A DNA stretch of 64,000 bases from a virus (Duplodnaviria; Heunggongvirae; Uroviricota; Caudoviricetes), in IMG/VR virus record IMGVR_UViG_3300044557_000292, positions 323,388 to 387,387 of that record. One strand, written 5' to 3'. Below are positions 1,577-49,024 of the stretch, piece by piece. A model generated the notes under the pieces. It searched no databases. It was not told the origin of the DNA and saw only the letters and a program-made list of their open reading frames with translations. The translations under genes were made by a program, and so were the position numbers. The number at the start of each line of letters is the position of its first letter. Positions within the stretch are counted from its first letter, which is position 1.

Positions 1577-1732
1577 ATGGTAGAGACTATCGTCGGTATC
1601 GTGGTGCTCGTGATCTTTGGACTCACCCTTAGCCACAGATCATTGAGCCGACTTGTACTCATTGTAGAATCTTACCAGTTCTACCCTCGCCCTGTCCTCT
1701 CCAACCTGACCATTGCTCATCCTGTACTCTAG
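1577..1732 (+). CDS. possible small ORF (51 aa, hydrophobic N-terminus MVETIVGIVVLVIFGLTL)
   Basis: ATG preceded by GAGGGGGAG Shine-Dalgarno 5 nt upstream; below the 60-aa cutoff of the ORF track; overlaps the 3' end of the CCA gene on the opposite strand. Confidence 0.2.
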   Translation: MVETIVGIVVLVIFGLTLSHRSLSRLVLIVESYQFYPRPVLSNLTIAHPVL

Positions 1733-3115
1733 CATGTGATCATAGAGGACACCCAGGACTGGACCAGGCTTGATCCCAAGGATGCTCATCATCTGGTTAC
1801 CGTTCAACTCGGGGCGGATCTTGTCAAGATCCTCCTTGGCCTTGAGCCTGGAGACGTGATCCTCCAGTTGGTCCATGTATCCAATGATGCGGGCCTCACG
1901 ATTCTTATGGAAGGTGGTCACGTCCGCCCTGGTAAGCACCATGAGACGATCATACAGCGGACCCACCTCCTGGAGGAATCTTCGCACACCAGAATCAGAC
2001 CATAAGACCCCGTTGGGATCAGCGTACCCATGTGCCCTCATGTGAAGGGCTACCAGGTCGCTCACATCCCTAATCACGTCATGAGGATACTTCAACGAGG
2101 ATAGCCTCTTCTTCACCATCCCGGCACCAGCAGCCTCGTGGCCATCAAAGGTCACCTTCTTCCTGCCGTTGAACCTCCTGGTGGTAGTCTTGCCCACGTC
2201 ATGGAGCACTGCGGCCAGTCTGAGGACAAGATCGGGGCCTCCATCAGGGAGTCTGTCCTCCATACTGATAGCCCTGTCAAGAACGGTGAGGGAATGCTCG
2301 AAGTTAGCCTTGTGGAGTCCACGGCTACTTCTATCAGCCCTCCTCAATTCTGACAACTCGGGGAGAACGTGATCCATGAGACCCGAATCAGACATCTCCC
2401 GTAGAGCGTTAGATGGGTTGGCTGACAGCATGATCTTGTTCAACTCGTCAGCAACCCTCTCCCTACTGATCTCATCAAGACGTGGGGTCATACTCCTTAT
2501 AGCGTTCATGGTCTCATCTTCAATCTTGAACCCATACTTGCCAACGAATCTGATCGCCCTGAGCATACGGAGTGGATCTTCACCGAAGGAGATCTTTGGG
2601 TCAAGCGGGGTGCGAATGACCCCACGCCTGAGATCTTCACGGCCTCCGTAGGGGTCAACCAGCACAAGATCAGGAAGTCTGATGGCCATCGCGTTGATGG
2701 TCATGTCACGACGCTTGAGATCATCTTCGAGGCTTGAACCCCATTCCACTCGAGGCTTCCTAGATCCACGATTATAGGAATCGGAACGGTAGGTGGTGAC
2801 CTCAACGTCAGCGTCAATATTCCCGGGGAGATGCCTGCGAGCACCAATGGTCCCATACTTACGGCCAACCTCCCAGTAGCCATCTCCCCACGGCATCAGT
2901 ATGCGGGAAGACTCATCTGGTCTAGCATTAGAGGTCATGTCAAGATCTTTTGGAACACGACCAAGAAGAAGATCGCGAACCGGTCCTCCAACAAGAGCCA
3001 GTTCATACCCCCTTGACTGGTATTCCCTTCCAAGACTGATGGATGCGTTGATGAGGGGGATGGCTGCATCTGGAATCATGATGCCACCCAGACCCTTGAC
3101 TGACAGGTTCTTCAT
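1640..3115 (-). CDS. cca: CCA-adding tRNA nucleotidyltransferase / poly(A) polymerase family with HD domain
   Basis: Pol-beta-like head motifs LVGGPVRDLLLGR and RRDMTINAMA, plus C-terminal HD region (LHDVGK, HMRAHG). Start moved to MKNLSVKG (ATG at 3115), which is preceded by GGAAGGAAGG; the tracked ORF extends to 3250. Confidence 0.8.
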   Translation of the reverse strand: MKNLSVKGLGGIMIPDAAIPLINASISLGREYQSRGYELALVGGPVRDLLLGRVPKDLDMTSNARPDESSRILMPWGDGYWEVGRKYGTIGARRHLPGNIDADVEVTTYRSDSYNRGSRKPRVEWGSSLEDDLKRRDMTINAMAIRLPDLVLVDPYGGREDLRRGVIRTPLDPKISFGEDPLRMLRAIRFVGKYGFKIEDETMNAIRSMTPRLDEISRERVADELNKIMLSANPSNALREMSDSGLMDHVLPELSELRRADRSSRGLHKANFEHSLTVLDRAISMEDRLPDGGPDLVLRLAAVLHDVGKTTTRRFNGRKKVTFDGHEAAGAGMVKKRLSSLKYPHDVIRDVSDLVALHMRAHGYADPNGVLWSDSGVRRFLQEVGPLYDRLMVLTRADVTTFHKNREARIIGYMDQLEDHVSRLKAKEDLDKIRPELNGNQMMSILGIKPGPVLGVLYDHMLEYRMSNGQVGEDRARVELVRFYNEYKSAQ

Positions 3116-3265
3116 AATCAGCCTTCCTTCCATTACTGTAGAAGCATTAACGTTAAAATGACAAATGACAATTGAATCATAATATGAAGACCCATAGGAA
3201 ACGCCGCGAGCCATGATGAGAATGGCCCGCGGCGTAGCAATACTCTCCACCAGCTGGATGAGATC

Positions 3266-3790
3266 CTATCGAGCTGACGGTGAGAGTATCAGCGTGACCG
3301 CAGACCCATTATACGTGGGCGGCGTCGAGATTACAAACACGTCTTCAAGCGAAGACACCATGGTCTTCATGCAGTCATACGCGACCTGCTTGTGATCACG
3401 CTCACGTCCACGAAGCTGCACGGTGAGGCGGACTTTATCACCCCTTGATAGGAATCGTACAGCCTGGTTCTTCTTGACCTCAAGATCATGTGATTCTATA
3501 TTCGGGCGGAGACGGATCTCCTTCAACTGCTGTACGCGAGCACTATGCCGCTGACGCTTGGCCTTCTGCTGCTCTTTAAATCTTTCCTCGGACGCATCAC
3601 CCATCTTCACGATGGGAGGATCATGACGAGCATCCATCTCAATGAGGTCAAATCCCGCATCATCGGCCAATCGAAGCGCGACGTCAGTATCAATCACCCC
3701 AGCGCTCTTACCGTTATCGCCTATGAGCATAACCCTGCTCGCGGTGATGTCCCCATTGATCTTCCTACGATTATCAGCGTTCTTACCCAA
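3266..3790 (-). CDS. infC: translation initiation factor IF-3
   Basis: 174 aa; N-domain ASRVMLIGDNGKSAGVIDTDVALRLADDAGFDLIEMDARHDPPIVKMGD and C-domain LKEIRLRPNIESHDLEVKKNQAVRFLSRGDKVRLTVQLRGRE match the bacterial IF-3 architecture; no rpmI/rplT downstream. Confidence 0.85.
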   Translation of the reverse strand: MGKNADNRRKINGDITASRVMLIGDNGKSAGVIDTDVALRLADDAGFDLIEMDARHDPPIVKMGDASEERFKEQQKAKRQRHSARVQQLKEIRLRPNIESHDLEVKKNQAVRFLSRGDKVRLTVQLRGRERDHKQVAYDCMKTMVSSLEDVFVISTPPTYNGSAVTLILSPSAR

Positions 3791-3900: not shown

Positions 3901-5091
3901 CTATCTTTCCAGCCTTGCCATTCGATCTTTGAGAACGCCGCCCATCTCGATGATGGCCACCTCAAGGTACACTCTCGTATCATTGTCTAGAGTGGAGTCA
4001 CGTTGGGCTTTCGCGATGATCTTAAAGCACTTGAGTAGGGTCTCAGGTCCAATGGTCACGGACATCTCCACCCTCTTACGAGGATACTCTTTCGTCTCGT
4101 CCTCGGTGAGACTCCCGATGATGATCATCTCCCTAGCGAAGTCAACCAATGATCTTGTAAGCACCCTGACGTCAACCCCGTCGATGATAGCATTAGATAG
4201 GTCAATAAGAGCCTTAACAGAATCCCCGCACGGGCTCTTCCTACCGTTGAGGAATAGATCAGACTCGATGAGGCGGGTCCAGTCCGTCTTATATGAGCCT
4301 GGGGTTGACAGGAGGTGGTCTAGCTCAGACAGGGTCTGACGCGCGGATCCACCCTCGAAGGTAGCCCCAGACTCTTTTATGGCCTTGACGATGAGGTCAG
4401 ACGAGTACACCTTCCTACGCTCGTGGAAATCTTTCCCAGCATCCTCGGTCTCGTACTGCTTCCTCTGCTCTTCTGGAATCTCCTCGTACCCCTCTTGCTT
4501 GAGTATTCTACGGCACAGCGCGTCGAGCGTCTTACGCGGTACGAGCTTGAACGCCCTCTGCTGGACGCGGCTCGTGATGGTCAGGGGTATCTTGTCGATC
4601 TCCGTCGTGCAGAATATGAATATTGACGACATGTTGGGATCTTCGAGTGGGATTAGAAGGGCGTCTAGAGCGTTCTTCGAGAGCCTCTGGATCTCGTCAA
4701 TGATCCATATGGGCTTCCTGATAGCACTCCTACGCTTAGCTTGATCTACTATAGACTTGATGTCATTCACGCCCCCACCCTCGAAGTTGGCAGCGCTCAG
4801 ATAGTGGACACCCATGTTCGTGTTAGCGTCTATAGACTTGCAATTATCACAATGATTACAGGGATTGCCCTCACCGTCAGGGTTCTCACAGTTGATGGCC
4901 TTCGCGAGGATCAACGCTACCGTGGTCTTCCCGCATCCCCTTGGGCCAGAGAAGAGGTACGCTCCGGCTATCCTATCAGTGGATACGCTCTCCCTAAGAT
5001 TATCAACGATCTTATCCTGTCCGACGACCTCCCCCCAAGTCCTTGGACGATACTTCTTGTAGAGCTCCTCATAACCATTCTTCTTAACCAT
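3901..5091 (-). CDS. dnaX: AAA+ clamp-loader ATPase, DnaX (gamma/tau)-like
   Basis: YRPRTWGEVVGQD motif; Walker A GPRGCGKTT; zinc module CENPDGEGNPCNHCDNC; Walker B IWIIDEIQ; sensor TSRVQQ; 396 aa, so a short gamma-like form. Confidence 0.85.
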   Translation of the reverse strand: MVKKNGYEELYKKYRPRTWGEVVGQDKIVDNLRESVSTDRIAGAYLFSGPRGCGKTTVALILAKAINCENPDGEGNPCNHCDNCKSIDANTNMGVHYLSAANFEGGGVNDIKSIVDQAKRRSAIRKPIWIIDEIQRLSKNALDALLIPLEDPNMSSIFIFCTTEIDKIPLTITSRVQQRAFKLVPRKTLDALCRRILKQEGYEEIPEEQRKQYETEDAGKDFHERRKVYSSDLIVKAIKESGATFEGGSARQTLSELDHLLSTPGSYKTDWTRLIESDLFLNGRKSPCGDSVKALIDLSNAIIDGVDVRVLTRSLVDFAREMIIIGSLTEDETKEYPRKRVEMSVTIGPETLLKCFKIIAKAQRDSTLDNDTRVYLEVAIIEMGGVLKDRMARLER

Positions 5092-7557: not shown

Positions 7558-7618
7558 AGCTTACGTTGCTCCTCGTGTGGTGGACACAATCATGTTTACA
7601 TGATGCATCTAACGCGCT

Positions 7619-7837
7619 GGATGAACCCCCGCAACGCGGGGAATACCTGTCACCTTGAATGCTACTCGAGATCGTAGCACCGCGGGGATGAACCCCGCCT
7701 AGGCGGGGAATACGGGTGAGACTGGAATCGTTGTGATTGCTGGAGGTGGGTTCAACCCCGCAACGCGGGGAATACAGTGGGCTATTGAATGGTAGTGCTC
7801 ACATCTGTTGGGTTCAACCCCGCAACGCGGGGAATAC
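7619..7837 (-). CRISPR. small degenerate CRISPR array (4 repeats, 3 spacers); trailer side of the locus
   Basis: Repeats gatgaacccccgcaacgcggggaatac, gatgaaccccgcctaggcggggaatac and 2x ggttcaaccccgcaacgcggggaatac, with 33-35-nt spacers; the reverse complement GTATTCCCCGCGTTGCGGGGTTGAACC matches the type I-E repeat architecture. Confidence 0.8.
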
Positions 7838-7908
7838 GGCCTGTTCCACGGTCTTGTCAACATCTGTTGACATCATGATAGAGCTCATACTAAACGGTTA
7901 CGAGACGG

Positions 7909-8583
7909 TTACGGAGCGGTGCAATACTCCGTGTCTATGCTCGACAGCAGGGAGGCGTTCCTCGCGGTGAACGTCTTGGACATGGACACGACGCTGGATC
8001 TATTGGATCCACCCGAACGTGATCCGACGCTGACGTTGATCTTAAGATCATCGAAGAACCCGGACACGGTGCCTACAGTGCCACCATAGAAGACCCCGCT
8101 ACCAGCGTCAACGGAGCCACTGGAATCATCCGAGGACGAGACCATAGACGTGAGGATGATCTTACCCTCATCATAGTCCGAGTCCTTCGAGGCGTCCTTG
8201 GATCTACGGATCATCCTCATCGTCCCATTGGAACCATCACCGATGGAACCATCAGGATCCTTCACGACGGTCAGCGCCACACACCTGCCGACAGTGTCGG
8301 CACTTGTGGCGCTAGCGGAATCCGCCGACTCACTGGGAATCGCCATCACCACAGTCTGGTCACCATCAGAATCGGTGGTGATCCTGAACCCAGCCGCGGA
8401 TCTTGCGTCTCTCCCCACCATCTGCATGGCTGTACTCACCTGCGACGTCGCCTGTGATCTTATGGTGGCGGAGTAGTTCGCTCTCATCAGCTGGATGGCG
8501 CTGAGAGAGAAGAACGCCATGAAGATCGCCATCGCCACAAGAAGCTCCACGAGGGACGCACCATGCTCGCCCCTATGGATCAT
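7909..8583 (-). CDS. type IV pilin-like / pseudopilin protein (class III prepilin signal)
   Basis: N-terminus MIHRGEHG|ASLVELLVAMAIFMAFFSLSAIQLMRANYS has Gly at -1, Glu at +5 and a hydrophobic helix typical of prepilin-peptidase substrates. The tracked ORF extends to 8727, but the ATG at 8583 is the likely start. Confidence 0.6.
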   Translation of the reverse strand: MIHRGEHGASLVELLVAMAIFMAFFSLSAIQLMRANYSATIRSQATSQVSTAMQMVGRDARSAAGFRITTDSDGDQTVVMAIPSESADSASATSADTVGRCVALTVVKDPDGSIGDGSNGTMRMIRRSKDASKDSDYDEGKIILTSMVSSSDDSSGSVDAGSGVFYGGTVGTVSGFFDDLKINVSVGSRSGGSNRSSVVSMSKTFTARNASLLSSIDTEYCTAP

Positions 8584-8774
8584 GCCCACACCATTGCCTA
8601 CATGTCTGTCCACATTATTGTCTACACCGGTGTCTGCACCCATTCGAGCATGTCCGAGCGTCCGTCCATACGCATATGTCCTCATCTTAATCTTCATCCT
8701 ATTCCCCCGTGGATCTAGTGGCGTCAACGAGCATCGAAGTCGTATAGTAGCTTATGGTATCACCACGCGAGACG

Positions 8775-10105
8775 GGTTCAACCCCGCAACGCGGGGAATA
8801 CCATCACTGGAGCCATCACTGGAGCAATCACAGTCAGGTTCAACCCCGCAACGCGGGGAATACGCTGCCGCATTACTGACTTCACGACCGTGAACCAGGG
8901 TTCAACCCCGCAACGCGGGGAATACCACACCGTTTGCAGCGAAGCTGCCTACCGAATCTAGGTTCAACCCCGCAACGCGGGGAATACGGAACGCTCTCTC
9001 TTTACTCTCAAGACCCGTCGAAGGGTTCAACCCCGCAACGCGGGGAATACTGATCTTCGTCTTTCCGGACTCAGTTTTGGTCAGAGGTTCAACCCCGCAA
9101 CGCGGGGAATACGCATTGATCGTTCTTATTGCGTTGAGAATGATACAGGTTCAACCCCGCAACGCGGGGAATACTTGAAGCCGGAGCCGGCTCACAGGAA
9201 ACGAAGCCAGGTTCAACCCCGCAACGCGGGGAATACTTGAAGCCGGAGCCGGCTCACAGGAAACGAAGCCAGGTTCAACCCCGCAACGCGGGGAATACAG
9301 ACGGCGGGCTAATCCATGAGCCGGGTAAGCGCAGGTTCAACCCCGCAACGCGGGGAATACCAAGCGCTATAATCTGTATGATGCGAAGCATACTAAGGTT
9401 CAACCCCGCAACGCGGGGAATACGTCTGTCGCACGTTGTTCTGAGATGAAATCTCCAGGGTTCAACCCCGCAACGCGGGGAATACTTTGCGATCTAATTC
9501 GTCCGCTTCGTTTGTAGAAAGGTTCAACCCCGCAACGCGGGGAATACTTGTTTCAATAGGATTGGCTCAGATTCAACTATAAGGTTCAACCCCGCAACGC
9601 GGGGAATACTCGAATCAGAAGAGGAGATTGCTGAGATGGCAGAAGGTTCAACCCCGCAACGCGGGGAATACCTGCACACGAAGCCTGATCCAATACCACG
9701 CGTAGGGGTTCAACCCCGCAACGCGGGGAATACTGATTATTTTTGTCTTTCTGTTTAGTTATAATATAGGTTCAACCCCGCAACGCGGGGAATACCACGC
9801 CTGCGATCTGCCACACGGGCTAGCACTGAGGGTTCAACCCCGCAACGCGGGGAATACCCATTGAATTTCGACTTTCTTCAGATCGAGTCTAGGGTTCAAC
9901 CCCGCAACGCGGGGAATACTTCAGTGCGCTTGGGTACTAGCACAGGACGGTGAGGGTTCAACCCCGCAACGCGGGGAATACAGTTCATGTTCTTCGATGA
10001 TGAGTAGCCGAAGATGGGTTCAACCCCGCAACGCGGGGAATACGTCTAGTTGGTCAACGTTGTTCGTTGCTACTACAAGGTTCAACCCCGCAACGCGGGG
10101 AATAC
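8775..10105 (-). CRISPR. CRISPR array, type I-E-like repeat, 22 repeats and 21 spacers (period 62)
   Basis: Perfect repeats ggttcaaccccgcaacgcggggaatac, equivalent to GTATTCCCCGCGTTGCGGGGTTGAACC on the minus strand, with a stem CCCCGC/GCGGGG like I-E. Spacers are 34-35 nt; two adjacent spacers (9177-9210 and 9239-9272) are identical; degenerate repeats lie at the low-coordinate end, so transcription is from the minus strand. Confidence 0.95.
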
Positions 10106-10218
10106 GCCTAGGAACGTTGAGACCACGTTAACGATGGTCGAGTACCACCACGATTCTCGTTAACGTAGATCAACATTCCGAACCCTCGAAAGAACCTCTA
10201 TTGGAATCATCACAGTTG
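10106..10218 (-). promoter_or_regulatory. putative CRISPR leader
   Basis: Non-coding sequence immediately 5' (on the minus strand) of the first perfect repeat; inferred from the orientation of the I-E-like repeat. Confidence 0.35.
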
Positions 10219-10704
10219 CTAGAAACCGTTATTCTTGGTTGGACCCGCTGCCGCTATCGAGCATCCTCGTTCACGGCGACCCTGATTCCTAGCAGGGGTA
10301 TGACCGTCGCCTCTCGGACGACGGGAGCGAACCGTCTGTAACACGGTGCTCAACCCGAATCTGTTGTTCTTGTGAAGCTTCCCCAGTCCGCGGAGTGCTA
10401 TGATATAGCCCGCAGCGTCATCCTTGTCACCCGTGTACCCGCACGTGTCGCATGTGAAGGAGTGGGTCCTAGGATCCGTGTCTTCGCAACCGGAGTGATC
10501 TTACCCTCCATCACGTACCGCCTTAGCGTGGAGTCCACCACCACAGGATAGTCGGCCGCTTCCTTGGGCCTGCACATTCCGTTCCTCATGTTGTAAATAT
10601 ATTACGGTAGTAACGCCAATGACACGAAAGCAGGTATCTAATGAATACAATATTAAGATATCAAGCATCAGTACAACCACATGATAAGATATCAGGAGGC
10701 ACAT
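10219..10704 (-). pseudogene. decayed TnpB/Cas12-like C-terminal fragment (zinc finger plus RuvC-III motif)
   Basis: Minus-strand frame reads ...RLSCGGGLHAKAVRDGG*DHSGCEDTDPRTHSFTCDTCGYTGDKDDAAGYIIALRGLGKLHK..., matching the TnpB/Cas12 C-terminal pattern CxxCG...D(A/K)DxNAAxNI..RG. It is interrupted by a stop and has no start codon; tracked ORFs 10398..10589 and 10501..10704 are pieces of it. Confidence 0.45.
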
Positions 10705-10740
10705 GTGGGACTCACGTCAGGGTCACGAGCCCGCCGCGTC

Positions 10741-11448
10741 TCAATCCCACATGTACGGGAGAACCTCACCTATCCATGCCCAAACCCTCTTGAATTCAGA
10801 CTCGACGCGCTTCTCGTAAGCTTGATCGCCAACGATGCCCAGCGTACGATCCTCATAGTCTTCAAGGGCGGTGTCGTTAAGGCGCGAGTACCTCCTGAAG
10901 ACCCTGGATGCATAATACAGATCCTGCGTCCAAGCTGCTCCATCAGCACCATACTCCTCAACGGTCTCATTAAGCTTATGATTAAAGTCTTTAGTGGATC
11001 CAATCTTTGACCAATCTATCGACACAATGCTGAACCGGTTCCATGGTGTCTTCAACCACTCTTCATAATCATCATCATGCTTGTTCAGCCAGTACCTGCG
11101 ACCATTATGAATGTTCGCGTCTCCATCATCTTGAATATAGAGGGGAGGATACCCGTGATCGGTTCTAGCCAGTTCAAGCATGAGCCTAGATAGCCTATCA
11201 ATCTCGCGATCACCAAGATCCCAAACATCATAATCGTCATACCCACGACGCGCCCTCTGGAACGTTCTCTTAACCCGGCCAGGAAGCTCACTCGCGTTCC
11301 TGTGAATGAACCCGTACGCTGTCTGCAATGGTGATGGAAGATGATCATACAGGGAATCACCGATATCCTCCAGCCCGTCCCTTAGACCATGATGCTCTTC
11401 ATCTTCATCATAAAGACTAGTTGTTATGTCCTGACCCTCACTACTCAT
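10741..11448 (-). CDS. hypothetical acidic protein
   Basis: 235-aa ORF, no recognisable motifs. Confidence 0.45.
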   Translation of the reverse strand: MSSEGQDITTSLYDEDEEHHGLRDGLEDIGDSLYDHLPSPLQTAYGFIHRNASELPGRVKRTFQRARRGYDDYDVWDLGDREIDRLSRLMLELARTDHGYPPLYIQDDGDANIHNGRRYWLNKHDDDYEEWLKTPWNRFSIVSIDWSKIGSTKDFNHKLNETVEEYGADGAAWTQDLYYASRVFRRYSRLNDTALEDYEDRTLGIVGDQAYEKRVESEFKRVWAWIGEVLPYMWD

Positions 11449-18489: not shown

Positions 18490-19749
18490 TCAGTACTGCT
18501 CGATGGAAACAGAATCGCTCTTGTGGTCAATTCTAGCAATGCTGAGGAATCCGCCCTTGTCCACCCTCGTCTCCAGATTGAAGATCTTACTGAACTCCCT
18601 TGGGTCATGACGATGTTCGTTACGATGCCCGTGGAATTGTATAACATCGGTATTCGCATCTTCAACGATCTTGTCAATATCAATCTTGTAGTCATGAACC
18701 ATTGGGCTCCCCCCGGTCCCGTACCACCAGGTCGACCCGCTCGTGAAGCCAATGTCATATGACCTGTAACCATCCAGCTCATGGTGCTCAAGCATGGCTG
18801 GATGTACTCCCCCATGAGACGAGAAGTAGTGCTTACCATCATAATAGAATGGGAAGTAGTCAACAAGATGAGTATCAATCAACCGCCCGTACCTCCGGAG
18901 GTTCTCTACTGAACCGTGAACATACTTAGAATCCCTTAGAATCTCCTCAATTGTCTTCCTCGTGGACAAAGAGTACGGCTCCCATACTTTAGATCCATAG
19001 TACTTAAAGTAACTGTCATGATTGCCCTTGATGAATACCCTGTTCGTATCATTGATATGATCAATGATCCAATCAAACATTGGCCCGGCTTCATCTTCAG
19101 GCCCACGATCCATAAGGTCACCACAGAACACGGTGAACTCACGAGGATTAATATTGTCTGCGCCAGATCTTACGAACGTGGAGTAGCAGCCCTGAATATC
19201 CCCAATCACCCTGACGTTCGAGTACTGGGAGAGCTCTGTCTCTTGAATCTTCCCTTGACCGCAGAACTCATCTACCGTCATTGCTGACTCGCTCCTATTG
19301 ACCTGAAATCTCCTCGTATCAGTCCAAGTCTTCTCCACCTCAGCGTCAGTCCAAGGTCTGTTCGCCCTGTGGGAACGCTCAATAACCTCTTCCAGTGATT
19401 GTTCTCCCTGAACGTTGACGAACACGACCTCGTAATTGTACTCATGTGCGAGATTCAGGATAGGATTAATCTTCTTGCGCTTTGAGTTCGTCCAATCAAA
19501 TATGATAGCATCCCCGGAACGCATCCTGCGCTCTATAATCTTGCAGGCGATGTCTAATGCTGTCCGTATGTTCTCGTTCGTAGAGTCACACCCGTAGGCG
19601 ATCTTACCATTATGATAATACGGCCTGTTCGGATCGATGATTCTCAATATGGAGTCAACGGATACGGTCTGGTCCTCCAGATGCTGTCTACGGATCAGGG
19701 TGGTCTTTCCTGACCCGTGCGCTCCCCGTATAATAAATATTTTACTCAT
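18490..19749 (-). CDS. polynucleotide kinase-phosphatase-like protein (P-loop kinase plus calcineurin-like metallophosphoesterase)
   Basis: N-terminal Walker A GAHGSGKTT; C-terminal metallophosphatase motifs GDIQGCY, GDLMDRGPE, GNHD, HGG and FHGHRNEH. Confidence 0.7.
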   Translation of the reverse strand: MSKIFIIRGAHGSGKTTLIRRQHLEDQTVSVDSILRIIDPNRPYYHNGKIAYGCDSTNENIRTALDIACKIIERRMRSGDAIIFDWTNSKRKKINPILNLAHEYNYEVVFVNVQGEQSLEEVIERSHRANRPWTDAEVEKTWTDTRRFQVNRSESAMTVDEFCGQGKIQETELSQYSNVRVIGDIQGCYSTFVRSGADNINPREFTVFCGDLMDRGPEDEAGPMFDWIIDHINDTNRVFIKGNHDSYFKYYGSKVWEPYSLSTRKTIEEILRDSKYVHGSVENLRRYGRLIDTHLVDYFPFYYDGKHYFSSHGGVHPAMLEHHELDGYRSYDIGFTSGSTWWYGTGGSPMVHDYKIDIDKIVEDANTDVIQFHGHRNEHRHDPREFSKIFNLETRVDKGGFLSIARIDHKSDSVSIEQY

Positions 19750-19770
19750 AAGTCAATAGTAACAATAAGG

Positions 19771-19860
19771 GGTGAACACCGCAACGCGGGGAATACTCTT
19801 GAATGATCTCCCGTCACCAAGTTTGAATACAGGTTCAGACCCGCCTACACGGGGTTCACC
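19771..19860. CRISPR. solitary degenerate CRISPR-like unit (2 diverged repeats, 1 spacer-length insert)
   Basis: ggtgaacaccgcaacgcggggaatac, then a 34-nt insert, then ggttcagacccgcctacacggggttcacc; sits exactly between the topA stop (19861) and the PNK start (19749). Confidence 0.6.
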
Positions 19861-20949
19861 CTAACGCTTCCTTGAAACCCTTCCAGATGCGGGCTTCCTC
19901 CTCGCAGGATGATCTTTCTGATAATCATCCCATATTTCCTTAGCCCGATCAGGAGACAGCGCCCTGGGATCTTCCCCATCTGGAAGCGATATGAATACAG
20001 CACGACCACGCGGAGCATTCTTATGACCCAGCCACGCCCCCCTCTTCCCTATTCCAGTGAAGAACCCGTCACCGAGCTGTCGTGGTAGCTTCACCTCTGA
20101 GAACATCTGCTCAGCATCTTGAAGGGTCACCGTGTCCTCAGTGAGACCACCGTCCTTGGGAAGCGTCATGTTCACGGGCTTAGCGCTCTTCACTGGTGAA
20201 CCATCCTTATGGATCCTCACGGCCTGCACGTAAGAGCCATACTTACCATTCCTAGCCGTCACCTGCCATCCAGCATACGGGCCGTCCTTCAGTATCCCCA
20301 GGACACGATTCACGGGCGATTTTGCCTCATCTAGTAGCTTCCTGCACGCGCCCGGCGTGAGGGCGTCTTCATCTGTTAGAACGGAATCATCCAGCTTCAC
20401 GCTCTTCACGTACCCAGAATCATTCTTCTCCCCCGAGGGGTCTTCAAGCCACGCGCCAGACCTGTTCACCCTGACCACGTACCCGCCGTTGAGATGAACC
20501 TCCGACAGCGTGTTGATCTCATTCCAGTCAATATTCCTAGCGAGACCATTCACCCTGCCATCAATGCCGTCAGGAGCCTTCCACACGCCATCAAGGAAGT
20601 CATCCCTTGATAGCGATCCGTCACCGATCTTATCAAGATCTTCCTCCATGGATGCGGTGAACCCGTAGTCAACGTACCCCGGAATCTTATCCTCAAGAAT
20701 CTGGGCGACCTTCATGCCCGTCCATGTCGGCGCCATCGCCCTTCCCTTCTTCTGCACGTACCCGCGCTTCTGATTCACGGTCACGAGGTTAGCATACGTT
20801 GACGGTCTACCAATACCAAGTTCTTCCAACTTGGCCACAAGTTGCGGCTCTGTGAACCTTGCCGGAGGTGTAGTCGTGTGCATGGTCGAGGATGCTGTTG
20901 ACAACTCACATTCCTCCCCAACCTTGAACTCATGCGTATTCCTTGCCAT
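19861..20949 (-). CDS. topA: DNA topoisomerase I, C-terminal portion (downstream of the in-frame TAA)
   Basis: TPPARFTEPQLVAKLEELGIGRPSTYANLVTVNQKRGYV matches the conserved topo IA domain III/IV region. Confidence 0.75.
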   Translation of the reverse strand: MARNTHEFKVGEECELSTASSTMHTTTPPARFTEPQLVAKLEELGIGRPSTYANLVTVNQKRGYVQKKGRAMAPTWTGMKVAQILEDKIPGYVDYGFTASMEEDLDKIGDGSLSRDDFLDGVWKAPDGIDGRVNGLARNIDWNEINTLSEVHLNGGYVVRVNRSGAWLEDPSGEKNDSGYVKSVKLDDSVLTDEDALTPGACRKLLDEAKSPVNRVLGILKDGPYAGWQVTARNGKYGSYVQAVRIHKDGSPVKSAKPVNMTLPKDGGLTEDTVTLQDAEQMFSEVKLPRQLGDGFFTGIGKRGAWLGHKNAPRGRAVFISLPDGEDPRALSPDRAKEIWDDYQKDHPARRKPASGRVSRKR

Positions 20950-20967: not shown

Positions 20968-22389
20968 TTATTCTTCACCGTCATCATACACGGACAGGAA
21001 TCCCCTGTCATCTATCCTCGTACTACTCGTCGTGAACACGGCCTTACCGTCACTAGATGTAATCGTGATCTTTCGCGTGATCCCCCTCGCAGGGTTCATC
21101 TGGCTAGCCACGGTCCTCCTGTACACGAGATCATAGACCTCACCAGCCTTAGCGTCATATGAGGAAGATGCCGTCAGCCCCCTGATCTTCGCTGGATCAT
21201 AGAATATTCCCGTTGATTCCTCTACAACAGGACGGATGCACTCGTGACCCTCCTGAGCATTCTTAGACTTCGACTTGTATATGATCGGCTTTGATGGCAT
21301 CTGTCCACCGTACTGTTTACGGATAATACTCCTCGCCGCCCTCACGGCCTCATCTGCCATCGCTGGGCTGTCCGTCCTTGAGTATGTTTGATACGTGTGC
21401 TCGAAGAGCTGCTGGGCTATACTCATAGCCCTGCTGGCCGTGAGCCCAAGCATGGATCCAACATTCTGCTGGTATGATGACGTGGTGTACGGGGTTGGAG
21501 GATTCCTCTTATAGGGCTTCTCCGTAATGTCAGTGATACTGTACTTTTTTGACTTCAGGTCTTTTAGGATCTTCTTCACATTATCATCACTGAGGGTGAG
21601 CTTATCTGAGGATCCATCCTTCAGCATGCCGTCAGGACCGTAATCAGATCCCGATGCTATTCTACTCCCATCGTACTCCACGAGGCTAGCCGTCAATTCG
21701 GCTTCCGTCCCCCTGTTAAAAACAGCCTCAATGGATCCATATGACGCCTTCACGAAGCCTAGGCGATCCTTCTCCCTGTTCACGACGAGGCGCAGGGTGG
21801 GTGACTGCGCCCTGCCTCCAGACGTCCCAGACCCTACCGTCTTCCAAAGGTATGGGGAGATACTGAACCCGAAGAGACGATCATAGACCTGCCGGGCCTC
21901 TGCCGACTCGGCCTTCCGCACGTCTATACTAGCATATGACTCCAGACCGGCAAGCACTGCCCGCTTCGTGATCTCATGCCAACTCGCCCTGCGGACATCC
22001 ATGCCAGACTTCTTGAGATCTGATTCTAGCGACTGCACGACCTCGTATCCAATGAGCTCTCCCGCCTCGTCCGGATCAGTACTCACATAGAAATGCTTCC
22101 ACCTGCCAGACCTGACCTCAGATCTGATCTCACCCCACTGCTTACGATTCTGAGGGTCATGATCTAGGAGACGCTCATAACGCCCACTCCGCACGTCGAT
22201 CGAGTAATCGCCGTACCGTTCACGCTCTTGACTAGTGCTCTTCTTCGGGTCCTTGAGCTCGAACATGAAACCCTTCGTGGCCATGATCTTCCACCCGCTG
22301 CCAAGGAACCCAGTGATCTCCCTGGCCTTGGTAGGCGACTCAACGATCATGAGGCCGCCGTCACGCTGAATGTCTTCTATGATTGCCAT
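20968..22389 (-). CDS. topA: DNA topoisomerase I, N-terminal portion (TOPRIM plus domain II), ends at an in-frame TAA
   Basis: LMIVESPTKAREITGFLG TOPRIM motif; the stop (TAA at 20968-20970) is in the same frame as the downstream ORF and separated from its ATG by 18 nt. Confidence 0.75.
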   Translation of the reverse strand: MAIIEDIQRDGGLMIVESPTKAREITGFLGSGWKIMATKGFMFELKDPKKSTSQERERYGDYSIDVRSGRYERLLDHDPQNRKQWGEIRSEVRSGRWKHFYVSTDPDEAGELIGYEVVQSLESDLKKSGMDVRRASWHEITKRAVLAGLESYASIDVRKAESAEARQVYDRLFGFSISPYLWKTVGSGTSGGRAQSPTLRLVVNREKDRLGFVKASYGSIEAVFNRGTEAELTASLVEYDGSRIASGSDYGPDGMLKDGSSDKLTLSDDNVKKILKDLKSKKYSITDITEKPYKRNPPTPYTTSSYQQNVGSMLGLTASRAMSIAQQLFEHTYQTYSRTDSPAMADEAVRAARSIIRKQYGGQMPSKPIIYKSKSKNAQEGHECIRPVVEESTGIFYDPAKIRGLTASSSYDAKAGEVYDLVYRRTVASQMNPARGITRKITITSSDGKAVFTTSSTRIDDRGFLSVYDDGEE

Positions 22390-46795: not shown

Positions 46796-49024
46796 TCATA
46801 GCTGGCACGATATGCACTCGCTCACATTGTCAACCTCAGTGCCGCCAAGAGCAGCCTGACGCAAGCGCATGTAATAGAGCGTCTTTATCCCGTGTGACCA
46901 TGCGTACACGTAATTCTTCACCACATCCCTCGTGGTGGCCGTGTCAGGATAGAAGAGCGTGAGGCTCATGCCCTGATCAACATACGGTTGCGCGGTAGCA
47001 TACGTGTCGATGATCGCCCTCGGCCCGATCTGGTACGCATCCCCGTACTCATTCACGTTCTCATTCGTGAGACCGTAAGCTGGATAGTACACCCTTCCAG
47101 TCTTACCCTCCTTACGGATCTCGATGGCCGCGGCCACGGGGTGAATGCTAGATGTAGAGCCGTTGATATACGAGATAGAACCCGTAGGTGGAACGGCCTG
47201 CAGGTAAGCGTTGAATATGCCGTCACGCTTGACCTCATCCCTCAACTCCTCCCACTCCCTTACCGTTGGGACGCCCACGTGGTACTCACCGAAAATACGA
47301 GCAATCTTATCCGTCTTGAATGGCTTAGTTCTACTCGTGAACCGCTCGAAGTATGATCCATCAGCATACTCTGATTCTTCGAATCCTTGGAATCTCCCAC
47401 CGCGTTCCACTGCAAGCTCGTGACTGGCCTTGATAGCATGATAAGCAACTGTTCTGAAGTAAGCGTCAACGAAGTCAAGGGCTTCCGGGGATCCGTACTG
47501 GATGCCGTGACTCATGAGGAACCCGTGAAGGTTCATCTCCCCGAGGCCAATCGTATGCCTAGTCTCATTGGCCTTCTTGAGTGACGGAACACTGCCTGCA
47601 TCTGTAAGCTCTGAAACAGCCGTGAGGGACCTGATGGCCGTGTTGATCGTGCCACCAAGATCACCCGACTCGAACGCCTTGGCAATATTCAGTGATCCCA
47701 GGTTGCAGGACACGTCAAGACCGATCTTATCGTATGAAAGATCCTCAGCATACTCTGATGGTTCCTGCGACTGGATTATCTCCGAGCAGAGGTTACTCTG
47801 CGTGATTCGACCCGGTATTGGGTTCTCCCTGTTAGCCGTGTCCTCGAATAGGATGTACGGGTAGCCCGACTCGAACTGGATCTCCGCTATCGTGGTGAAC
47901 AGCTTGCGCACATTCACATGACCCCTGACCACACGGGAGTCATTGGCAAGCTCATCATAATGATCACTCACCCCAATGTCAGCAAGACTCCTCCCATAAT
48001 ACTTCTGCAGCTCGTAGGGGCTGAACAGGGCCATGTCCTTATTCTCCCTCGCCAGCCTGAACGCAACGTCTGGCACAACGATTCCAAGGGATAGTGTCTT
48101 GATACGGATCTTCTCGTCAGCATTCTCCCTCTTCGTGTCGAGGAATCTCAGAATGTCGGGGTGATTCAAGTGAAGATACACGGCACCTGCCCCCTGACGG
48201 GCTCCAAGCTGGTTCGCGTAGGAGAATGAGTCCTCAAGGATCTTCATCACGGGAACCACTCCAGACGACTGATTCTCGATACCCTTGATTGGCGCACCCT
48301 GCTCACGCAGATTACTCAGACCGAGAGCAACACCACCACCCCTCTTTGAGAGTTGGAGCGCAGAGTTAATATTCCTCCCAATGCTTTCCATATTGTCCTC
48401 AGTGCGGAGGAGGTAACAAGACACGTACTCCCCACGGCGAACCTTACCCGCGTTCAGGAATGTTGGTGTTGCTGGTTGATACCTCCCAGTGATTATAGAC
48501 TCAGCGATCTTCAATGCGAAGTCATCATCACCCCGTGCTAGCTTGAGGGCGACGGCCGTCGCCCTCTCCACGAAATCCTCAAGGTACGTCTTACCGTCAC
48601 TAGTCCTCATCGAGTACTGCTGATAGAACTTGTAGACACCCATGAATGACCCGAATGCCGTCCATAGCGAGCGCCCCCTACTATGAATCTCGTCAATGAA
48701 TCCATCATCATACTCATCCACAAGATCACGTTCATAGTAACCGTTATCAACCAGCCAGTGGTATCGTTCATGCTCAGAGCCAAACCTCCTCGTGTTCGGC
48801 TCGACCTCTGATATGAGGTAGGCCTGCTCAGCCTCCCAGTCCCTATCAAATTGGATAGTACGATCATCACCCCATATGTTCAACATCGAGTTCAAAGCAC
48901 GTGGATCTAGCCCTTCCTTAAGATCCTTCCTCGCCCTCTCCCTTAACTCTTCAATAGACACTTCTGACTGATTCCTACTACTCATACCGATCCTATCTCC
49001 TCCTTCAACTGCTTGTTGTCTCAC
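46796..49024 (-). CDS. nrdE: class Ib ribonucleotide reductase alpha subunit
   Basis: 742 aa; motifs [20 protein letters not shown]; C-terminal CISCQL. Confidence 0.9.

What the first reader, a model, noticed from the sequence alone, without database searches (positions are those of the whole stretch)
10219..10704. Decayed TnpB/Cas12-like RuvC-III plus zinc-finger remnant directly flanking the CRISPR leader
The minus-strand frame encodes ...FTCDTCGYTGDKDDAAGYIIALRGLG..., preceded by a degenerate first Cys pair. This matches the C-terminal signature of TnpB, IscB and Cas12 nucleases (CxxCG ... DxDxNAAxNI..RG). An in-frame stop and the missing upstream start make it a pseudogene. Its position on the same strand, immediately upstream of the array leader, is where a type V effector or an IS200/605 TnpB would sit. 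It may be a relic of an RNA-guided nuclease once linked to this array, or of an IS605-family insertion.
Basis: seen in the sequence. Interest (0 to 1): 0.65.

Follow-up and report, generated by a model that had tools for sequence, protein, structure and literature searches.

The report
Gutted IS607 transposon beside phage CRISPR array
The TnpB-like motif is real, but it is the tail of a 440-base, internally deleted IS607-type jumping gene that landed 106 bases upstream of a huge phage's CRISPR array; it is not the relic of a nuclease that once served that array, so this is an ordinary transposon remnant in an unusual place.

Summary
The minus-strand frame at 10219-10482 encodes the last 87 residues of a TnpB-type RNA-guided nuclease: the second CxxC of the zinc finger and the RuvC-III aspartate. 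It is 94-95% identical to intact 532-548-aa proteins from related huge-phage contigs. In 4 of 9 independent loci those genes sit directly behind a serine-recombinase TnpA that passes the NCBIfam IS607 transposase cut-off in the three tested.

Window 10478-10651 matches the left end plus the first 37 tnpA codons. Window 10212-10482 matches the tnpB 3' end plus the right end (...GCAACTGT). About 1.86 kb between them is missing, with the junction at a short microhomology. So 10212-10651 is an internally deleted IS607-family element that keeps both ends. It also keeps a conserved, covarying omega-RNA-like scaffold.

No intact relative lies near a CRISPR array. The array's repeat is of the type I-E class, no anti-repeat is present, and the window holds no cas gene. 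The "degenerate first Cys pair" is tnpA sequence read out of frame. Novelty is low: a new member of a known kind.

The parts
10212..10651 (-). Whole internally deleted IS607-family element, about 440 bp, with both ends kept and about 1.86 kb of tnpA and tnpB missing
   Evidence: Two collinear blocks match intact elements. Window 10651->10478 is 90.9% identical to L012 685-859. Window 10482->10212 is 96.3% identical to L012 2717-2987. The equivalent figures against L006 are 88% and 93.4%. Flanks are unrelated in all copies.
10590..10651 (-). Left end (LE). It starts ATTGTATTCATTAGATACCTG and contains a sigma-70-like site, GTGTCA-18-TATATT, at 10625->10596 just upstream of the tnpA start
   Evidence: The LE sequence is conserved in L003, L004, L006, L009, L012 and L047, and the flanks diverge immediately 5' of ATTGT. 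The promoter-like site comes and is only a weak consensus match (3 sites found in the region against 2.1 expected by chance).
10478..10589 (-). First 37 codons of the serine-recombinase tnpA (MerR/excisionase-type HTH): MRNGMCRPKEAADYPVVVDSTLRRYVMEGKITPVAKT
   Evidence: 33 of 37 residues match the L006 TnpA N-terminus and 32 of 37 match L012. The full-length TnpAs score 132-144 bits against NCBIfam NF033518, IS607 family transposase, cut-off 110. The L->P and G->V changes inside the HTH, and a non-synonymous to synonymous codon ratio near 1, suggest relaxed constraint.
10398..10589 (-). Chimeric 63-aa ORF (59 aa from the second ATG). It consists of the TnpA HTH stub running out of frame into tnpB-derived DNA
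   Evidence: the ORF listing. It is called as a 59-aa gene in the identical contigs L001, L045 and L046. It gives only weak HTH_17, MerR and excisionase hits at E about 0.1.
10477..10482 (-). Deletion junction: GAAGACAC|GGATCC, with a short microhomology (GACNC-GG) between tnpA codon 37 and tnpB codon -87
   Evidence: Comparison of the window junction with the tnpA and tnpB sequences of L006, L009 and L012.
10219..10482 (-). Last 87 codons plus stop of tnpB. It holds the second CxxC (CDTC, 10441-10452), the RuvC-III motif GDKDDAAGYIIALRG with the predicted catalytic Asp at 10420-10422, and the C-terminal tail
   Evidence: tblastn gives 94-95% identity to P0004 and P0005. The family profile matches solved Cas12f, TnpB, Cas12m, Cas12g and CasPhi structures over this region at E down to 9.8e-9, and that alignment places the Asp of K-D-D on the catalytic Asp of Cas12f.
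10212..10356 (-). Omega-RNA-like structured scaffold. It overlaps the tnpB 3' end and stops at the right end (...UAGCAACUGU). It comprises a three-way junction (10296-10356) and a long-range stem (10284-10294 pairing with 10217-10227) that encloses two hairpins
   Evidence: RNAalifold on 8 copies predicts 55 pairs. 93.6% of cells are paired, against 33-47% when partners are slid. Five pairs show compensatory changes. The covariation score is reached by 1 of 500 shuffles. The window copy keeps 54 of 55 pairs. There is no Rfam match. This part is inferred, not shown.
10212..10218 (-). Right end (RE) terminus, CAACTGT, 7 nt after the stop codon. The TGT is shared with the LE boundary (ATTGT), as expected for the core dinucleotide of a serine-recombinase element
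   Evidence: All copies, including the 54%-identical L008, end in AACTGT and diverge immediately afterwards. The logic of a core dinucleotide shared by LE, RE and TAM in IS607 is described in PMC10690162.
10106..10211 (-). 106-nt stretch between the IS right end and the first CRISPR repeat. It is the leader, and its first 16-20 nt would be the guide of any omega RNA made from this copy
   Evidence: Sequence and repeat positions. No sigma-70-like site was found inside it.
7619..10105 (-). CRISPR array with a type I-E-class repeat, GTATTCCCCGCGTTGCGGGGTTGAACC. It is context, not part of the IS. It has 22 perfect repeats, a 937-bp interruption carrying a prepilin-like ORF, then 2 perfect and 2 degenerate repeats
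   Evidence: Repeats of the same architecture, with a 61-nt period, occur in Parasutterella, Luteimonas and Lachnospiraceae arrays.

Best explanation
Window 10212-10651 (minus strand) is a non-autonomous, internally deleted copy of an IS607-family insertion sequence that circulates in a clade of huge phages.

The intact element is about 2.3 kb. In order it has: a left end (ATTGT...), tnpA (a 207-aa serine recombinase with an N-terminal MerR-like HTH), tnpB (a divergent 532-555-aa RNA-guided nuclease with intact D/E/D RuvC residues and a CxxC...CxxC zinc finger), and a right end (...GCAACTGT) 7 nt after the tnpB stop.

In the window copy, a microhomology-mediated deletion of about 1.86 kb joined tnpA codon 37 to tnpB codon -87. 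The copy can therefore make neither the transposase nor the nuclease.

What it keeps is both recombination ends, the tnpA promoter region, and the roughly 145-nt structured RNA scaffold at the tnpB 3' end that in TnpB systems becomes the omega RNA.

Shown: homology, boundaries, the deletion junction, the IS607 identity of the partner gene, and the absence of any CRISPR linkage in relatives.

Inferred: (a) the conserved structure is the omega-RNA scaffold. (b) The copy could still be excised or moved by TnpA, and its omega RNA used by TnpB, if intact copies in the same phage supply them in trans. Its guide would then be the first about 16-20 nt of the CRISPR leader, and the TAM is predicted to be near (A)TTGT. 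(c) Its position next to the array is an accident of insertion, not a functional link.
For: 1. Homology. The fragment hits a single family at E 1.2e-35. There are eight family members of 532-555 aa, all with PF07282, and the remnant is 94-95% identical to P0004 and P0005.

2. IS607 identity. In L005, L006, L008 and L012/L013 the gene is immediately preceded by an HTH+Resolvase gene. Two of these TnpAs pass the NCBIfam IS607 transposase equivalog cut-off at 143.7 and 132.2 bits against 110.

3. The window's 37 codons upstream of the junction are the N-terminus of that TnpA, at 86-89% identity. The 62 nt before them are the conserved left end.

4. Sharp, shared boundaries with unrelated flanks at 9 independent insertion sites: LE ATTGT.. 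and RE ..AACTGT. Contig tallies suggest that P0001 and P0002 both occur on the same 349.7-kb contig, which would mean at least two copies in one phage genome. I read P0002 itself only on a different, 262-kb contig.

5. Junction microhomology.

6. Recent origin. DNA identity to L012/L013 is 96.3% at the right-end part. L013 comes from sample 3300045595, which also holds a contig identical to the window.

7. Structured RNA. 55 pairs, 93.6% of cells paired against 33-47% in slid controls, compensatory changes in 5 pairs, and the window copy keeps 54 of 55 pairs.

8. Published mechanism for IS607 TnpA, TnpB and omega RNA, including trans-mobilisation of a mini-IS lacking both genes: PMC10690162.
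Against: - The TnpB family scores below NCBIfam's curated TnpB cut-offs: 44-55 bits against 100 for guided_TnpB, and about 19-20 bits against 350 for IS607_TnpB. Its N-terminal ~200-275 residues fall outside the TnpB profile match (which starts at residue 209-277) and have no Pfam match, so it is a divergent branch.
- The AlphaFold model was too poor to test the fold (pLDDT 46).
- The omega-RNA assignment rests on only 8 sequences. The structure was derived from the same alignment on which it was scored. The single-sequence fold z-score is modest at -1.9. No Rfam family matches.
- No empty-site allele was found, so the order of events (IS first or array first) is unknown.
- No second copy of the deleted form was found elsewhere. 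The 59-aa junction ORF occurs only at this same locus in three samples, so there is no evidence that the mini-element has actually moved.
- Whether an intact copy sits in the same phage genome as the window is not known.
Confidence: 0.9

Rival explanations
1. Relic of a type V (Cas12-like) effector gene that once used the adjacent CRISPR array. Under this reading the effector decayed and the array survived.
For: The fragment lies on the same strand as the array and 106 nt upstream of the first repeat. The family profile also hits Cas12f, Cas12m, Cas12g and CasPhi structures and the NCBIfam Cas12f2 model weakly. Huge phages are known to carry Cas12-like genes (PMC11748809).
Against: - The fragment is flanked by a tnpA stub and by IS607 ends that recur at unrelated sites.
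- Intact relatives pair with an IS607 transposase.
- None of the 9 loci that carry an intact relative has an array within 3-10 kb.
- The repeat is a Cas6e-type I-E hairpin repeat with a 61-62-nt period.
- The best anti-repeat match in the remnant and leader is 15 of 27, which is chance level.
- A sister phage lacks the whole block.
Confidence: 0.02
2. Co-opted remnant. The deleted IS is retained because it does something for the phage. Its tnpA promoter could drive read-through transcription of the leader and array, the 59-63-aa HTH stub could act as a small regulator, or its omega RNA (guide = CRISPR leader) could arm TnpB from intact copies against sibling genomes that carry the uninterrupted site.
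For: - The promoter-like site, the ORF, the scaffold, the leader and the array all point the same way, with no predicted terminator between them, and no sigma-70-like site was found in the 106-nt leader itself.
- The scaffold is almost untouched (54 of 55 pairs).
- The locus is identical in three samples.
- Intact copies exist in the same metagenomes.
Against: - The promoter scan is at chance level (3 found, 2.1 expected), and the -10 element that is TGnTATAAT in intact copies is mutated in the window.
- The HTH stub has proline and valine substitutions in the helix region and a non-synonymous to synonymous ratio near 1.
- High conservation is equally explained by a recent deletion.
- No comparative or expression evidence is available.
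Confidence: 0.07
3. Chance zinc-ribbon-like motif in non-coding DNA.
For: Alone, the fragment is below threshold in Pfam (E 0.03), has no NCBIfam hit, and got no hit in the word-indexed protein search.
Against: E 1.2e-35 to an intact 540-aa protein. 83-96% DNA identity over 253-275 nt (about 270) without gaps to eleven other loci.
Confidence: 0.005

Closest known systems
IS607-family insertion sequences (serine-recombinase TnpA plus TnpB plus omega RNA), e.g. IS607 of Helicobacter pylori and the Clostridium botulinum IStron elements
   Same: The gene order is tnpA (MerR-like HTH plus small serine recombinase) then tnpB. The TnpA passes the NCBIfam IS607 equivalog model. There are no long terminal inverted repeats. 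The same short motif (TGT) sits at the LE boundary and the RE terminus, like the core dinucleotide and TAM arrangement described for CboIStron (PMC10690162). A structured RNA overlaps the tnpB 3' end and stops at the RE. tnpA-less and gene-less derivatives exist.
   Different: The TnpB is 532-555 aa, against the 389-431-position NCBIfam TnpB profiles and an ordinary 413-aa TnpB in L006. It scores below the curated TnpB cut-offs. The end motif is TGT rather than GG. There is no group I intron and no RAGATH-18-type RNA (no Rfam hit). The hosts are huge-phage genomes. The window copy has lost about 1.86 kb and encodes neither protein.
Non-autonomous (MITE-like) deletion derivatives of IS200/IS605 and IS607 elements, and the engineered 'mini-IS' substrates
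   Same: Both ends are kept, the internal coding sequence is lost, and any movement would depend on enzymes supplied in trans. A mini-IS lacking tnpA and tnpB is excised by TnpA in trans in PMC10690162.
   Different: Only one genomic site was found for this deleted form, so there is no sign of amplification. It still carries gene stubs on both sides of the junction.
Type V CRISPR-Cas effectors of the miniature kind (Cas12f/Cas14, Cas12n, CasPhi/Cas12j of huge phages)
   Same: They share the RuvC plus zinc-finger (TNB) C-terminal module. They are similar in size to Cas12f. They occur in huge phages. The remnant is physically next to an array.
   Different: There is no association with arrays in any intact relative. 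The gene is embedded in a transposon with a transposase. The neighbouring array has a class 1, type I-E-style repeat and there is no tracrRNA-like anti-repeat.
Cas-less CRISPR arrays with host-type repeats carried by huge phages
   Same: This is a phage-borne array with a repeat of a bacterial type I-E class, and there are no cas genes in the 64 kb examined.
   Different: This concerns the neighbour of the finding, not the finding itself. Here the array is also interrupted by a 937-bp segment with a prepilin-like ORF.

Membership tests
TnpB / Cas12 superfamily (the gene the fragment comes from) | C-terminal zinc-finger/TNB domain (Pfam PF07282) above the curated threshold | tested here: met
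   Intact relative P0001 scores 41.6 bits against a cut-off of 26.3, E 1.4e-10. All 8 members are annotated with PF07282. The window fragment alone scores 14.9 bits, below threshold, because half the domain is deleted.
TnpB / Cas12 superfamily (the gene the fragment comes from) | RuvC catalytic triad D...E...D in the canonical order, with the third Asp after the zinc finger | tested here: met
   The family alignment A4 has invariant G-x-DIGM, an E in V/A-x-E-E/D-LSW, and GDKDDAA. The HMM alignment to Cas12f 9nzq places the K-D-D Asp on the Asp of N-A-D-F-N-A. Only the third motif survives in the window.
TnpB / Cas12 superfamily (the gene the fragment comes from) | Full-length match to curated TnpB models (NCBIfam guided_TnpB NF040570, IS607_TnpB NF038280) | tested here: not met
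   The hits are significant but below cut-off: 44-55 bits against 100, and 19-20 bits against 350. This makes it a divergent branch, not a member of the curated subfamilies.
TnpB / Cas12 superfamily (the gene the fragment comes from) | TnpB-like three-dimensional fold (WED, REC, RuvC, TNB) | tested here: inconclusive
   The AlphaFold2 model from the 8-sequence alignment had mean pLDDT 45.9 and pTM 0.32, so I did not attempt a fold search.
IS607-family insertion sequence | Transposase is a small serine recombinase with an N-terminal MerR-like HTH, encoded directly upstream of tnpB | tested here: met
   The L012 and L006 TnpAs score 143.7 and 132.2 bits against NF033518 (cut-off 110), and they have Pfam HTH_17/MerR plus Resolvase. 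The window retains codons 1-37 of this gene.
IS607-family insertion sequence | Defined ends shared by copies inserted at unrelated sites, with the same short core motif at both boundaries | tested here: met
   The LE ATTGT(A/T).. and the RE ..GCAACTGT are conserved, and flanks are unrelated in L003, L004, L005, L006, L008, L009, L012, L047 and the window.
IS607-family insertion sequence | Transposition through TnpA-mediated excision to a circle and re-integration | not testable with these tools
   This needs an excision or integration assay, or read-level evidence of circles and donor joints.
Omega RNA (TnpB guide RNA) | Conserved structured RNA overlapping the tnpB 3' end, ending at the RE and followed by flank-derived guide | tested here: inconclusive
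   The consensus structure has 55 pairs, with compensatory changes in 5 of them. 93.6% of cells are paired against 33-47% in slid controls, and the covariation score is reached by 1 of 500 shuffles. But there are only 8 sequences, the structure was derived from the same alignment, and there is no Rfam match. No RNA data exist.
Type V CRISPR-Cas locus (considered and rejected) | Effector gene consistently adjacent to a CRISPR array whose repeat it uses, with a tracrRNA anti-repeat where required | tested here: not met
   There is no array near any of the 9 intact loci. The best anti-repeat match is 15 of 27. The repeat is of type I-E architecture.
Type I-E-class CRISPR array (the neighbour) | Repeat of about 28-29 nt with a CCCCGC-N4-5-GCGGGG hairpin, a conserved 3' handle, and a period of about 61 nt | tested here: met
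   There are 24 exact copies at a 62-63-nt period. The same architecture with a 61-nt period is found in Parasutterella muris, Luteimonas and Lachnospiraceae arrays. Assignment to Cas6e/type I-E rests on established knowledge of the E. coli repeat. cas genes were not examined in those genomes.

The most novel reading that the evidence does not exclude
The gutted IS607 may not be inert. It may be kept as a stand-alone omega-RNA gene, transcribed from the surviving tnpA promoter, whose guide is the distal CRISPR leader. Loaded onto TnpB made by intact copies in the same huge phage, it would cut sibling phage or host genomes that carry the uninterrupted leader next to a TTGT-like TAM. That would drive homing of the IS-plus-array haplotype. 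The same read-through transcript could also express the phage's Cas-less type I-E array. This would be a physical and transcriptional coupling of an omega-RNA scaffold to a CRISPR array, reminiscent of the proposed TnpB-to-Cas12 transition.
Probability: 0.06. Interest if true: 0.7.

Novelty: new member of a known kind. Interest (0 to 1): 0.25.

Why it matters
For the scan, this finding should not be counted as a degenerate type V locus or as evidence that this phage array once had its own effector.

There are three modest points of value.

1. It led to a small, previously unnamed branch of long (532-555 aa) TnpB nucleases. They are carried by IS607-type elements that move within huge-phage genomes. 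The ends are defined, the TAM is predicted to be near TTGT, and there is a candidate omega-RNA scaffold. These could be tested as compact RNA-guided nucleases.

2. It gives a clean natural example of a microhomology-mediated internal deletion that leaves both ends and the guide-RNA scaffold of an IS607 element.

3. It shows that the block made of the IS remnant, the array and the pilin ORF is a strain-variable island. A sister phage in the same sample has a CHAP-domain gene in its place.

Tried and rejected
- DNA searches of the region and of 25 kb around it against the phage and plasmid collections gave no match.
- tblastn of the fragment against phages gave only E 0.2-0.4 hits, to Nodularia phage transposases.
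- The word-indexed protein search with the fragment found nothing. Only the exhaustive HMMER search found the family.
- The search for related loci in viral contigs, with the 830-aa neighbour and with P0001, found nothing.
- Exact-pattern scans for the CRISPR repeat found nothing in viral, genome and metagenome contigs, and scans for the IS right end found nothing in viral and metagenome contigs. These collections evidently do not hold this phage lineage, so I could not look for an empty site there.
- Rfam gave no omega-RNA, RAGATH-18 or group I intron match in the window region or in intact elements.
- The AlphaFold2 model of P0007 was too poor for a fold search.
- No spacer of the array matched any fetched locus or the rest of the window.
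- I considered whether the array could be cargo inside the IS, with a second right end beyond the array near 7618. No RE-like sequence lies there, and homology to the sister contig resumes at 7617.
- I considered whether the CAACTGT heptamer about 30 nt after the ORF stop in sister contig L014 marks an empty target site. The flanks are not homologous, so nothing can be concluded.
Full report
**1. What the window is**

Almost all long ORFs are on the minus strand. Among them are:
- a CCA-adding-type nucleotidyltransferase (1640-3250),
- IF3 (3266-3790),
- a DnaX-like clamp-loader subunit (3901-5091),
- a topoisomerase split into two ORFs (19861-20949 and 20968-22389),
- class I ribonucleotide reductase (46796-49024),
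- TelA, VKOR and LemA proteins,
- an RNA ligase/kinase (54535-56055).

No cas gene was found. Short contigs identical to parts of the window come from JGI metagenomes 3300045594, 3300045595, 3300045596 and 3300044857. The relatives found later lie on contigs of up to 349.7 kb that carry a large tRNA gene array. The window is therefore best read as part of a huge-phage genome.

**2. The neighbour: the CRISPR array**

The repeat GTATTCCCCGCGTTGCGGGGTTGAACC occurs 24 times without mismatch on the minus strand. There are 22 copies from 10105 down to 8775. A 937-bp interruption follows, holding a 272-aa ORF with a prepilin N-methylation motif. Then come two more perfect repeats and two degenerate ones (...GTTCATCC), ending at 7619.

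The repeat has the hairpin-plus-handle architecture of type I-E repeats. A degenerate pattern scan recovers arrays with a 61-nt period in Parasutterella muris, Luteimonas and Lachnospiraceae genomes, with repeats such as GAGTTCCCCGCGCGAGCGGGGTTGAACCG.

**3.

The minus-strand frame ending in TAG at 10219-10221 reads DHSGCEDTDPRTHSFTCDTCGYTGDKDDAAGYIIALRGLGKLHKNNRFGLSTVLQTVRSRRPRGDGHTPARNQGRRERGCSIAAAGPTKNNGF*. An in-frame stop lies just upstream.

On its own the fragment is weak:
- its only Pfam hit is PF07282 (Cas12f1-like TNB), E 0.03, below threshold;
- NCBIfam gives nothing;
- phage tblastn gives only marginal hits to Nodularia phage 'transposases';
- the word-indexed search gives nothing.

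The exhaustive HMMER search of 1.84 billion representatives gave exactly one hit. This was P0001, 540 aa, E 1.2e-35, 71% identity, with fragment residues 5-93 aligned to P0001 residues 452-540. P0001 passes PF07282 (E 1.4e-10). It belongs to a family of eight proteins of 532-555 aa. The window fragment is 94-95% identical to P0004, P0005 and P0006 over 87 residues.

**4. What the family is**

The family alignment (A4) has an invariant RuvC-I motif (G-x-DIGMESHA), a RuvC-II glutamate (V/A-x-E-E/D-LSW), the zinc finger (ECPxC...F-x-C-x-x-CGY) and GDKDDAA.

A profile search of the PDB hits Cas12f (9.8e-9), several TnpB structures (about 2e-6), Cas12m, Cas12g, CasPhi and a TnpB-like Fanzor-type protein. 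All hits fall over the C-terminal RuvC/TNB module. The alignment puts the middle Asp of K-D-D on the catalytic Asp.

NCBIfam gives significant but sub-threshold hits to guided_TnpB (44-55 bits, cut-off 100). The matches cover profile positions from 97-174 (depending on the protein) up to 384-386 of 389. The family is thus a divergent, long branch of TnpB. An AlphaFold2 model built from only eight sequences was unusable (pLDDT 46).

**5. The decisive context: an IS607-type element**

In L005, L006, L008 and L012/L013 the gene is directly preceded, with overlapping or abutting reading frames, by a 174-211-aa protein with HTH_17/MerR and Resolvase domains. Two of these score 143.7 and 132.2 bits against the NCBIfam equivalog 'IS607 family transposase', whose cut-off is 110.

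In L003, L004, L009-L011 and L047 the tnpA gene is absent but the same left-end sequence is present upstream of tnpB.

Across all copies the sequence similarity starts at ATTGT(A/T)(A/T)(A/T)C(A/G)TTAGATACCTG. It stops at ...AAGAATAACGGTT..TAGCAACTGT, 7 nt after the stop codon. The flanks are unrelated from the next base on. Even the 54%-identical L008 copy ends in AACTGT.

Contig tallies suggest that P0001 and P0002 share a 349.7-kb contig. However, the only place I read for P0002 was on a separate 262-kb contig. L006 carries a second, unrelated IS607 close by.

This is the behaviour of a mobile element. The TGT shared by the LE boundary and the RE terminus fits the core-dinucleotide and TAM logic demonstrated for an IS607-family element in PMC10690162.

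**6. Anatomy of the window copy**

- Window 10651->10478 aligns with L012 685-859 (90.9%) and L006 5303-5478 (88%). This covers 62 nt of left end and the first 37 codons of tnpA: MRNGMCRPKEAADYPVVVDSTLRRYVMEGKITPVAKT, against MRNGMYRPKEAADYLGVVDSTLRRYVMEGKITPSAKT in L006.
- Window 10482->10212 aligns without gaps with L012 2717-2987 (96.3%), L009 (95.3%), L006 (93.4%) and L003-L005 (about 83%). This covers the last 87 codons of tnpB, the stop codon and the 7-nt RE tip.
- The two blocks meet at GAAGACAC|GGATCC. There tnpA (GAAGACAC-CGGG) and tnpB (ATGACGC-GGAC) share a short microhomology. About 1.86 kb, corresponding to L006 5479-7335, is missing.
It is tnpA sequence read in the tnpB frame. 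The real first CxxC was deleted.
- The chimeric ORF 10398-10589 (63 aa) is the TnpA HTH stub running out of frame into tnpB DNA.
- Substitution patterns fit a recent deletion. Against L009 the tnpB part has 7 synonymous and 4 non-synonymous codon changes, and its last 46 residues are identical (the last 55 bar one Ser-Arg/Ser-His difference from L012). The tnpA stub has a ratio near 1 and carries L->P and G->V changes inside the HTH.

**7. Omega-RNA question**

The last ~210 nt before the RE are more conserved in DNA than the protein would require.

RNAalifold on eight copies predicts a three-way junction (window 10296-10356). It also predicts a long-range stem that pairs GCUAGGAAUC (10285-10294) with GGUUUCUAGC (10218-10227) across the stop codon, enclosing two hairpins.

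Counting on the alignment gives the following:
- 93.6% of cells form pairs, against 33-47% when partners are slid.
- Five pairs show double changes. These include G-U to U-A in three sequences in the long-range stem, and four compensatory changes in the two hairpins of the divergent L008.
- The covariation score is reached by 1 of 500 shuffles.

The window copy keeps 54 of 55 pairs.

The caveats are real. There are only eight sequences. The structure was derived from the same alignment on which it was scored. The single-sequence z-score is only -1.9. No Rfam family matches.

I therefore call it an omega-RNA-like scaffold, inferred rather than shown. If it is one, its guide in this copy is the first 16-20 nt of the CRISPR leader (GAUGAUUCCAAUAGAGGUUC), and the TAM should resemble the LE-flanking (A)TTGT.

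**8. Is there any functional link to the array?**

I found none.
- None of the nine independent loci with intact family members has a CRISPR-like repeat within the 3-10 kb of flank I could read.
- The remnant and leader contain no anti-repeat; the best match is 15 of 27.
- The repeat belongs to a class 1 type.
- The sister contig L014, from the same sample, is 98% identical to window 17323-11487 and 93-94% identical to 11423-10741 and 7617-7178. Yet it carries a 1,042-bp segment with a CHAP-domain gene where the window has 7618-10740. The IS remnant, leader, array and pilin-like ORF thus form one strain-variable island.
- No empty-site allele could be found, so the order of arrival is unknown.
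- A sigma-70-like site in the LE (10625->10596) points toward the array with no predicted terminator in between. But the scan as a whole is at chance level, and the -10 box that is TGATATAAT in intact copies is mutated here.
- The deleted form was found only at this locus, identical in three samples. There is no sign that it has amplified.

**9. Verdict**

The motif is genuine TnpB sequence. It is the 3' stub of an internally deleted IS607-family element (10212-10651) that retains both ends and the candidate guide-RNA scaffold. Its adjacency to the phage's type I-E-style, Cas-less array is most simply an insertion accident.

The 'IS insertion' alternative is right, with the family corrected to IS607. 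The 'former type V effector' reading is not supported.

The remnant is a new member of a known kind. The only mildly novel by-product is the huge-phage-restricted branch of long TnpB proteins with defined ends, a predicted TAM and a candidate omega RNA.

Noticed in passing
window 7838-8774 (ORF 7909-8727, minus strand): The CRISPR array is interrupted between two perfect repeats by a 937-bp segment. It encodes a 272-aa protein with a prepilin-type N-terminal methylation motif (Pfam N_methyl, E 2.6e-4). Four more repeats follow it. A related contig (L047) carries a prepilin peptidase and PilM, so the phage lineage may encode type IV pilus or pseudopilus components.
   Followed up: partly
window 7619-7713: The two terminal repeats of the array are degenerate (GTATTCCCCGCCTAGGCGGGGTTCATCC and GTATTCCCCGCGTTGCGGGGGTTCATCC). 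Homology to the sister contig L014 resumes at 7617, right after the last one.
   Followed up: partly
window 19770-19796 (minus strand): A solitary degenerate copy of the CRISPR repeat (GTATTCCCCGCGTTGCGGTGTTCACCC, 3 mismatches) lies 9.7 kb from the array. It sits in the gap between a kinase-like ORF (18490-19749) and the C-terminal half of a topoisomerase.
   Followed up: no
window 19861-20949 and 20968-22389 (minus strand): A type IA topoisomerase is split into two adjacent ORFs. One holds Toprim plus Topoisom_bac positions 2-288 and the other holds positions 298-410 plus C-terminal repeats. This could be a frameshift, a stop, or a genuinely split gene.
   Followed up: no
window 9175-9209 and 9237-9271: Two adjacent spacers are identical (TGGCTTCGTTTCCTGTGAGCCGGCTCCGGCTTCAA). 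This indicates a repeat-spacer unit duplication.
   Followed up: no
window 7618-10740 versus L014 6942-7982: A sister phage contig from the same metagenome has a CHAP-domain (peptidoglycan hydrolase) gene in place of the whole block made of the IS remnant, the array and the pilin ORF. Its flanks are 93-98% identical to the window. This is a strain-variable island.
   Followed up: yes
L006 8263-10091: A second, unrelated IS607 element lies about 660 bp downstream of the first. It has a 196-aa TnpA (174.9 bits against NF033518) and an ordinary 413-aa TnpB (136.9 bits against guided_TnpB). Two IS607 lineages therefore coexist in these phages.
   Followed up: partly
L003 1-8900: A gene-poor stretch of about 8 kb, packed with dozens of tRNA-like direct repeats, lies immediately upstream of an intact tnpB copy on a 349.7-kb contig. 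I recognised them as tRNA genes from their T-arm and D-arm sequences in the repeat families and did not confirm this with ARAGORN.
   Followed up: no
window 10741-11448 versus P0009 (L014 5880-6941): The 235-aa ORF next to the IS has 353-355-aa homologues in relatives, with about 120 extra N-terminal residues. The C-terminus is identical, so the IS did not truncate it. The N-terminal difference is unexplained.
   Followed up: partly
L001, L045, L046 (three samples): The array and its flanks are 100% identical in contigs from three different samples of the series, so no spacer gain or loss is visible.
   Followed up: yes
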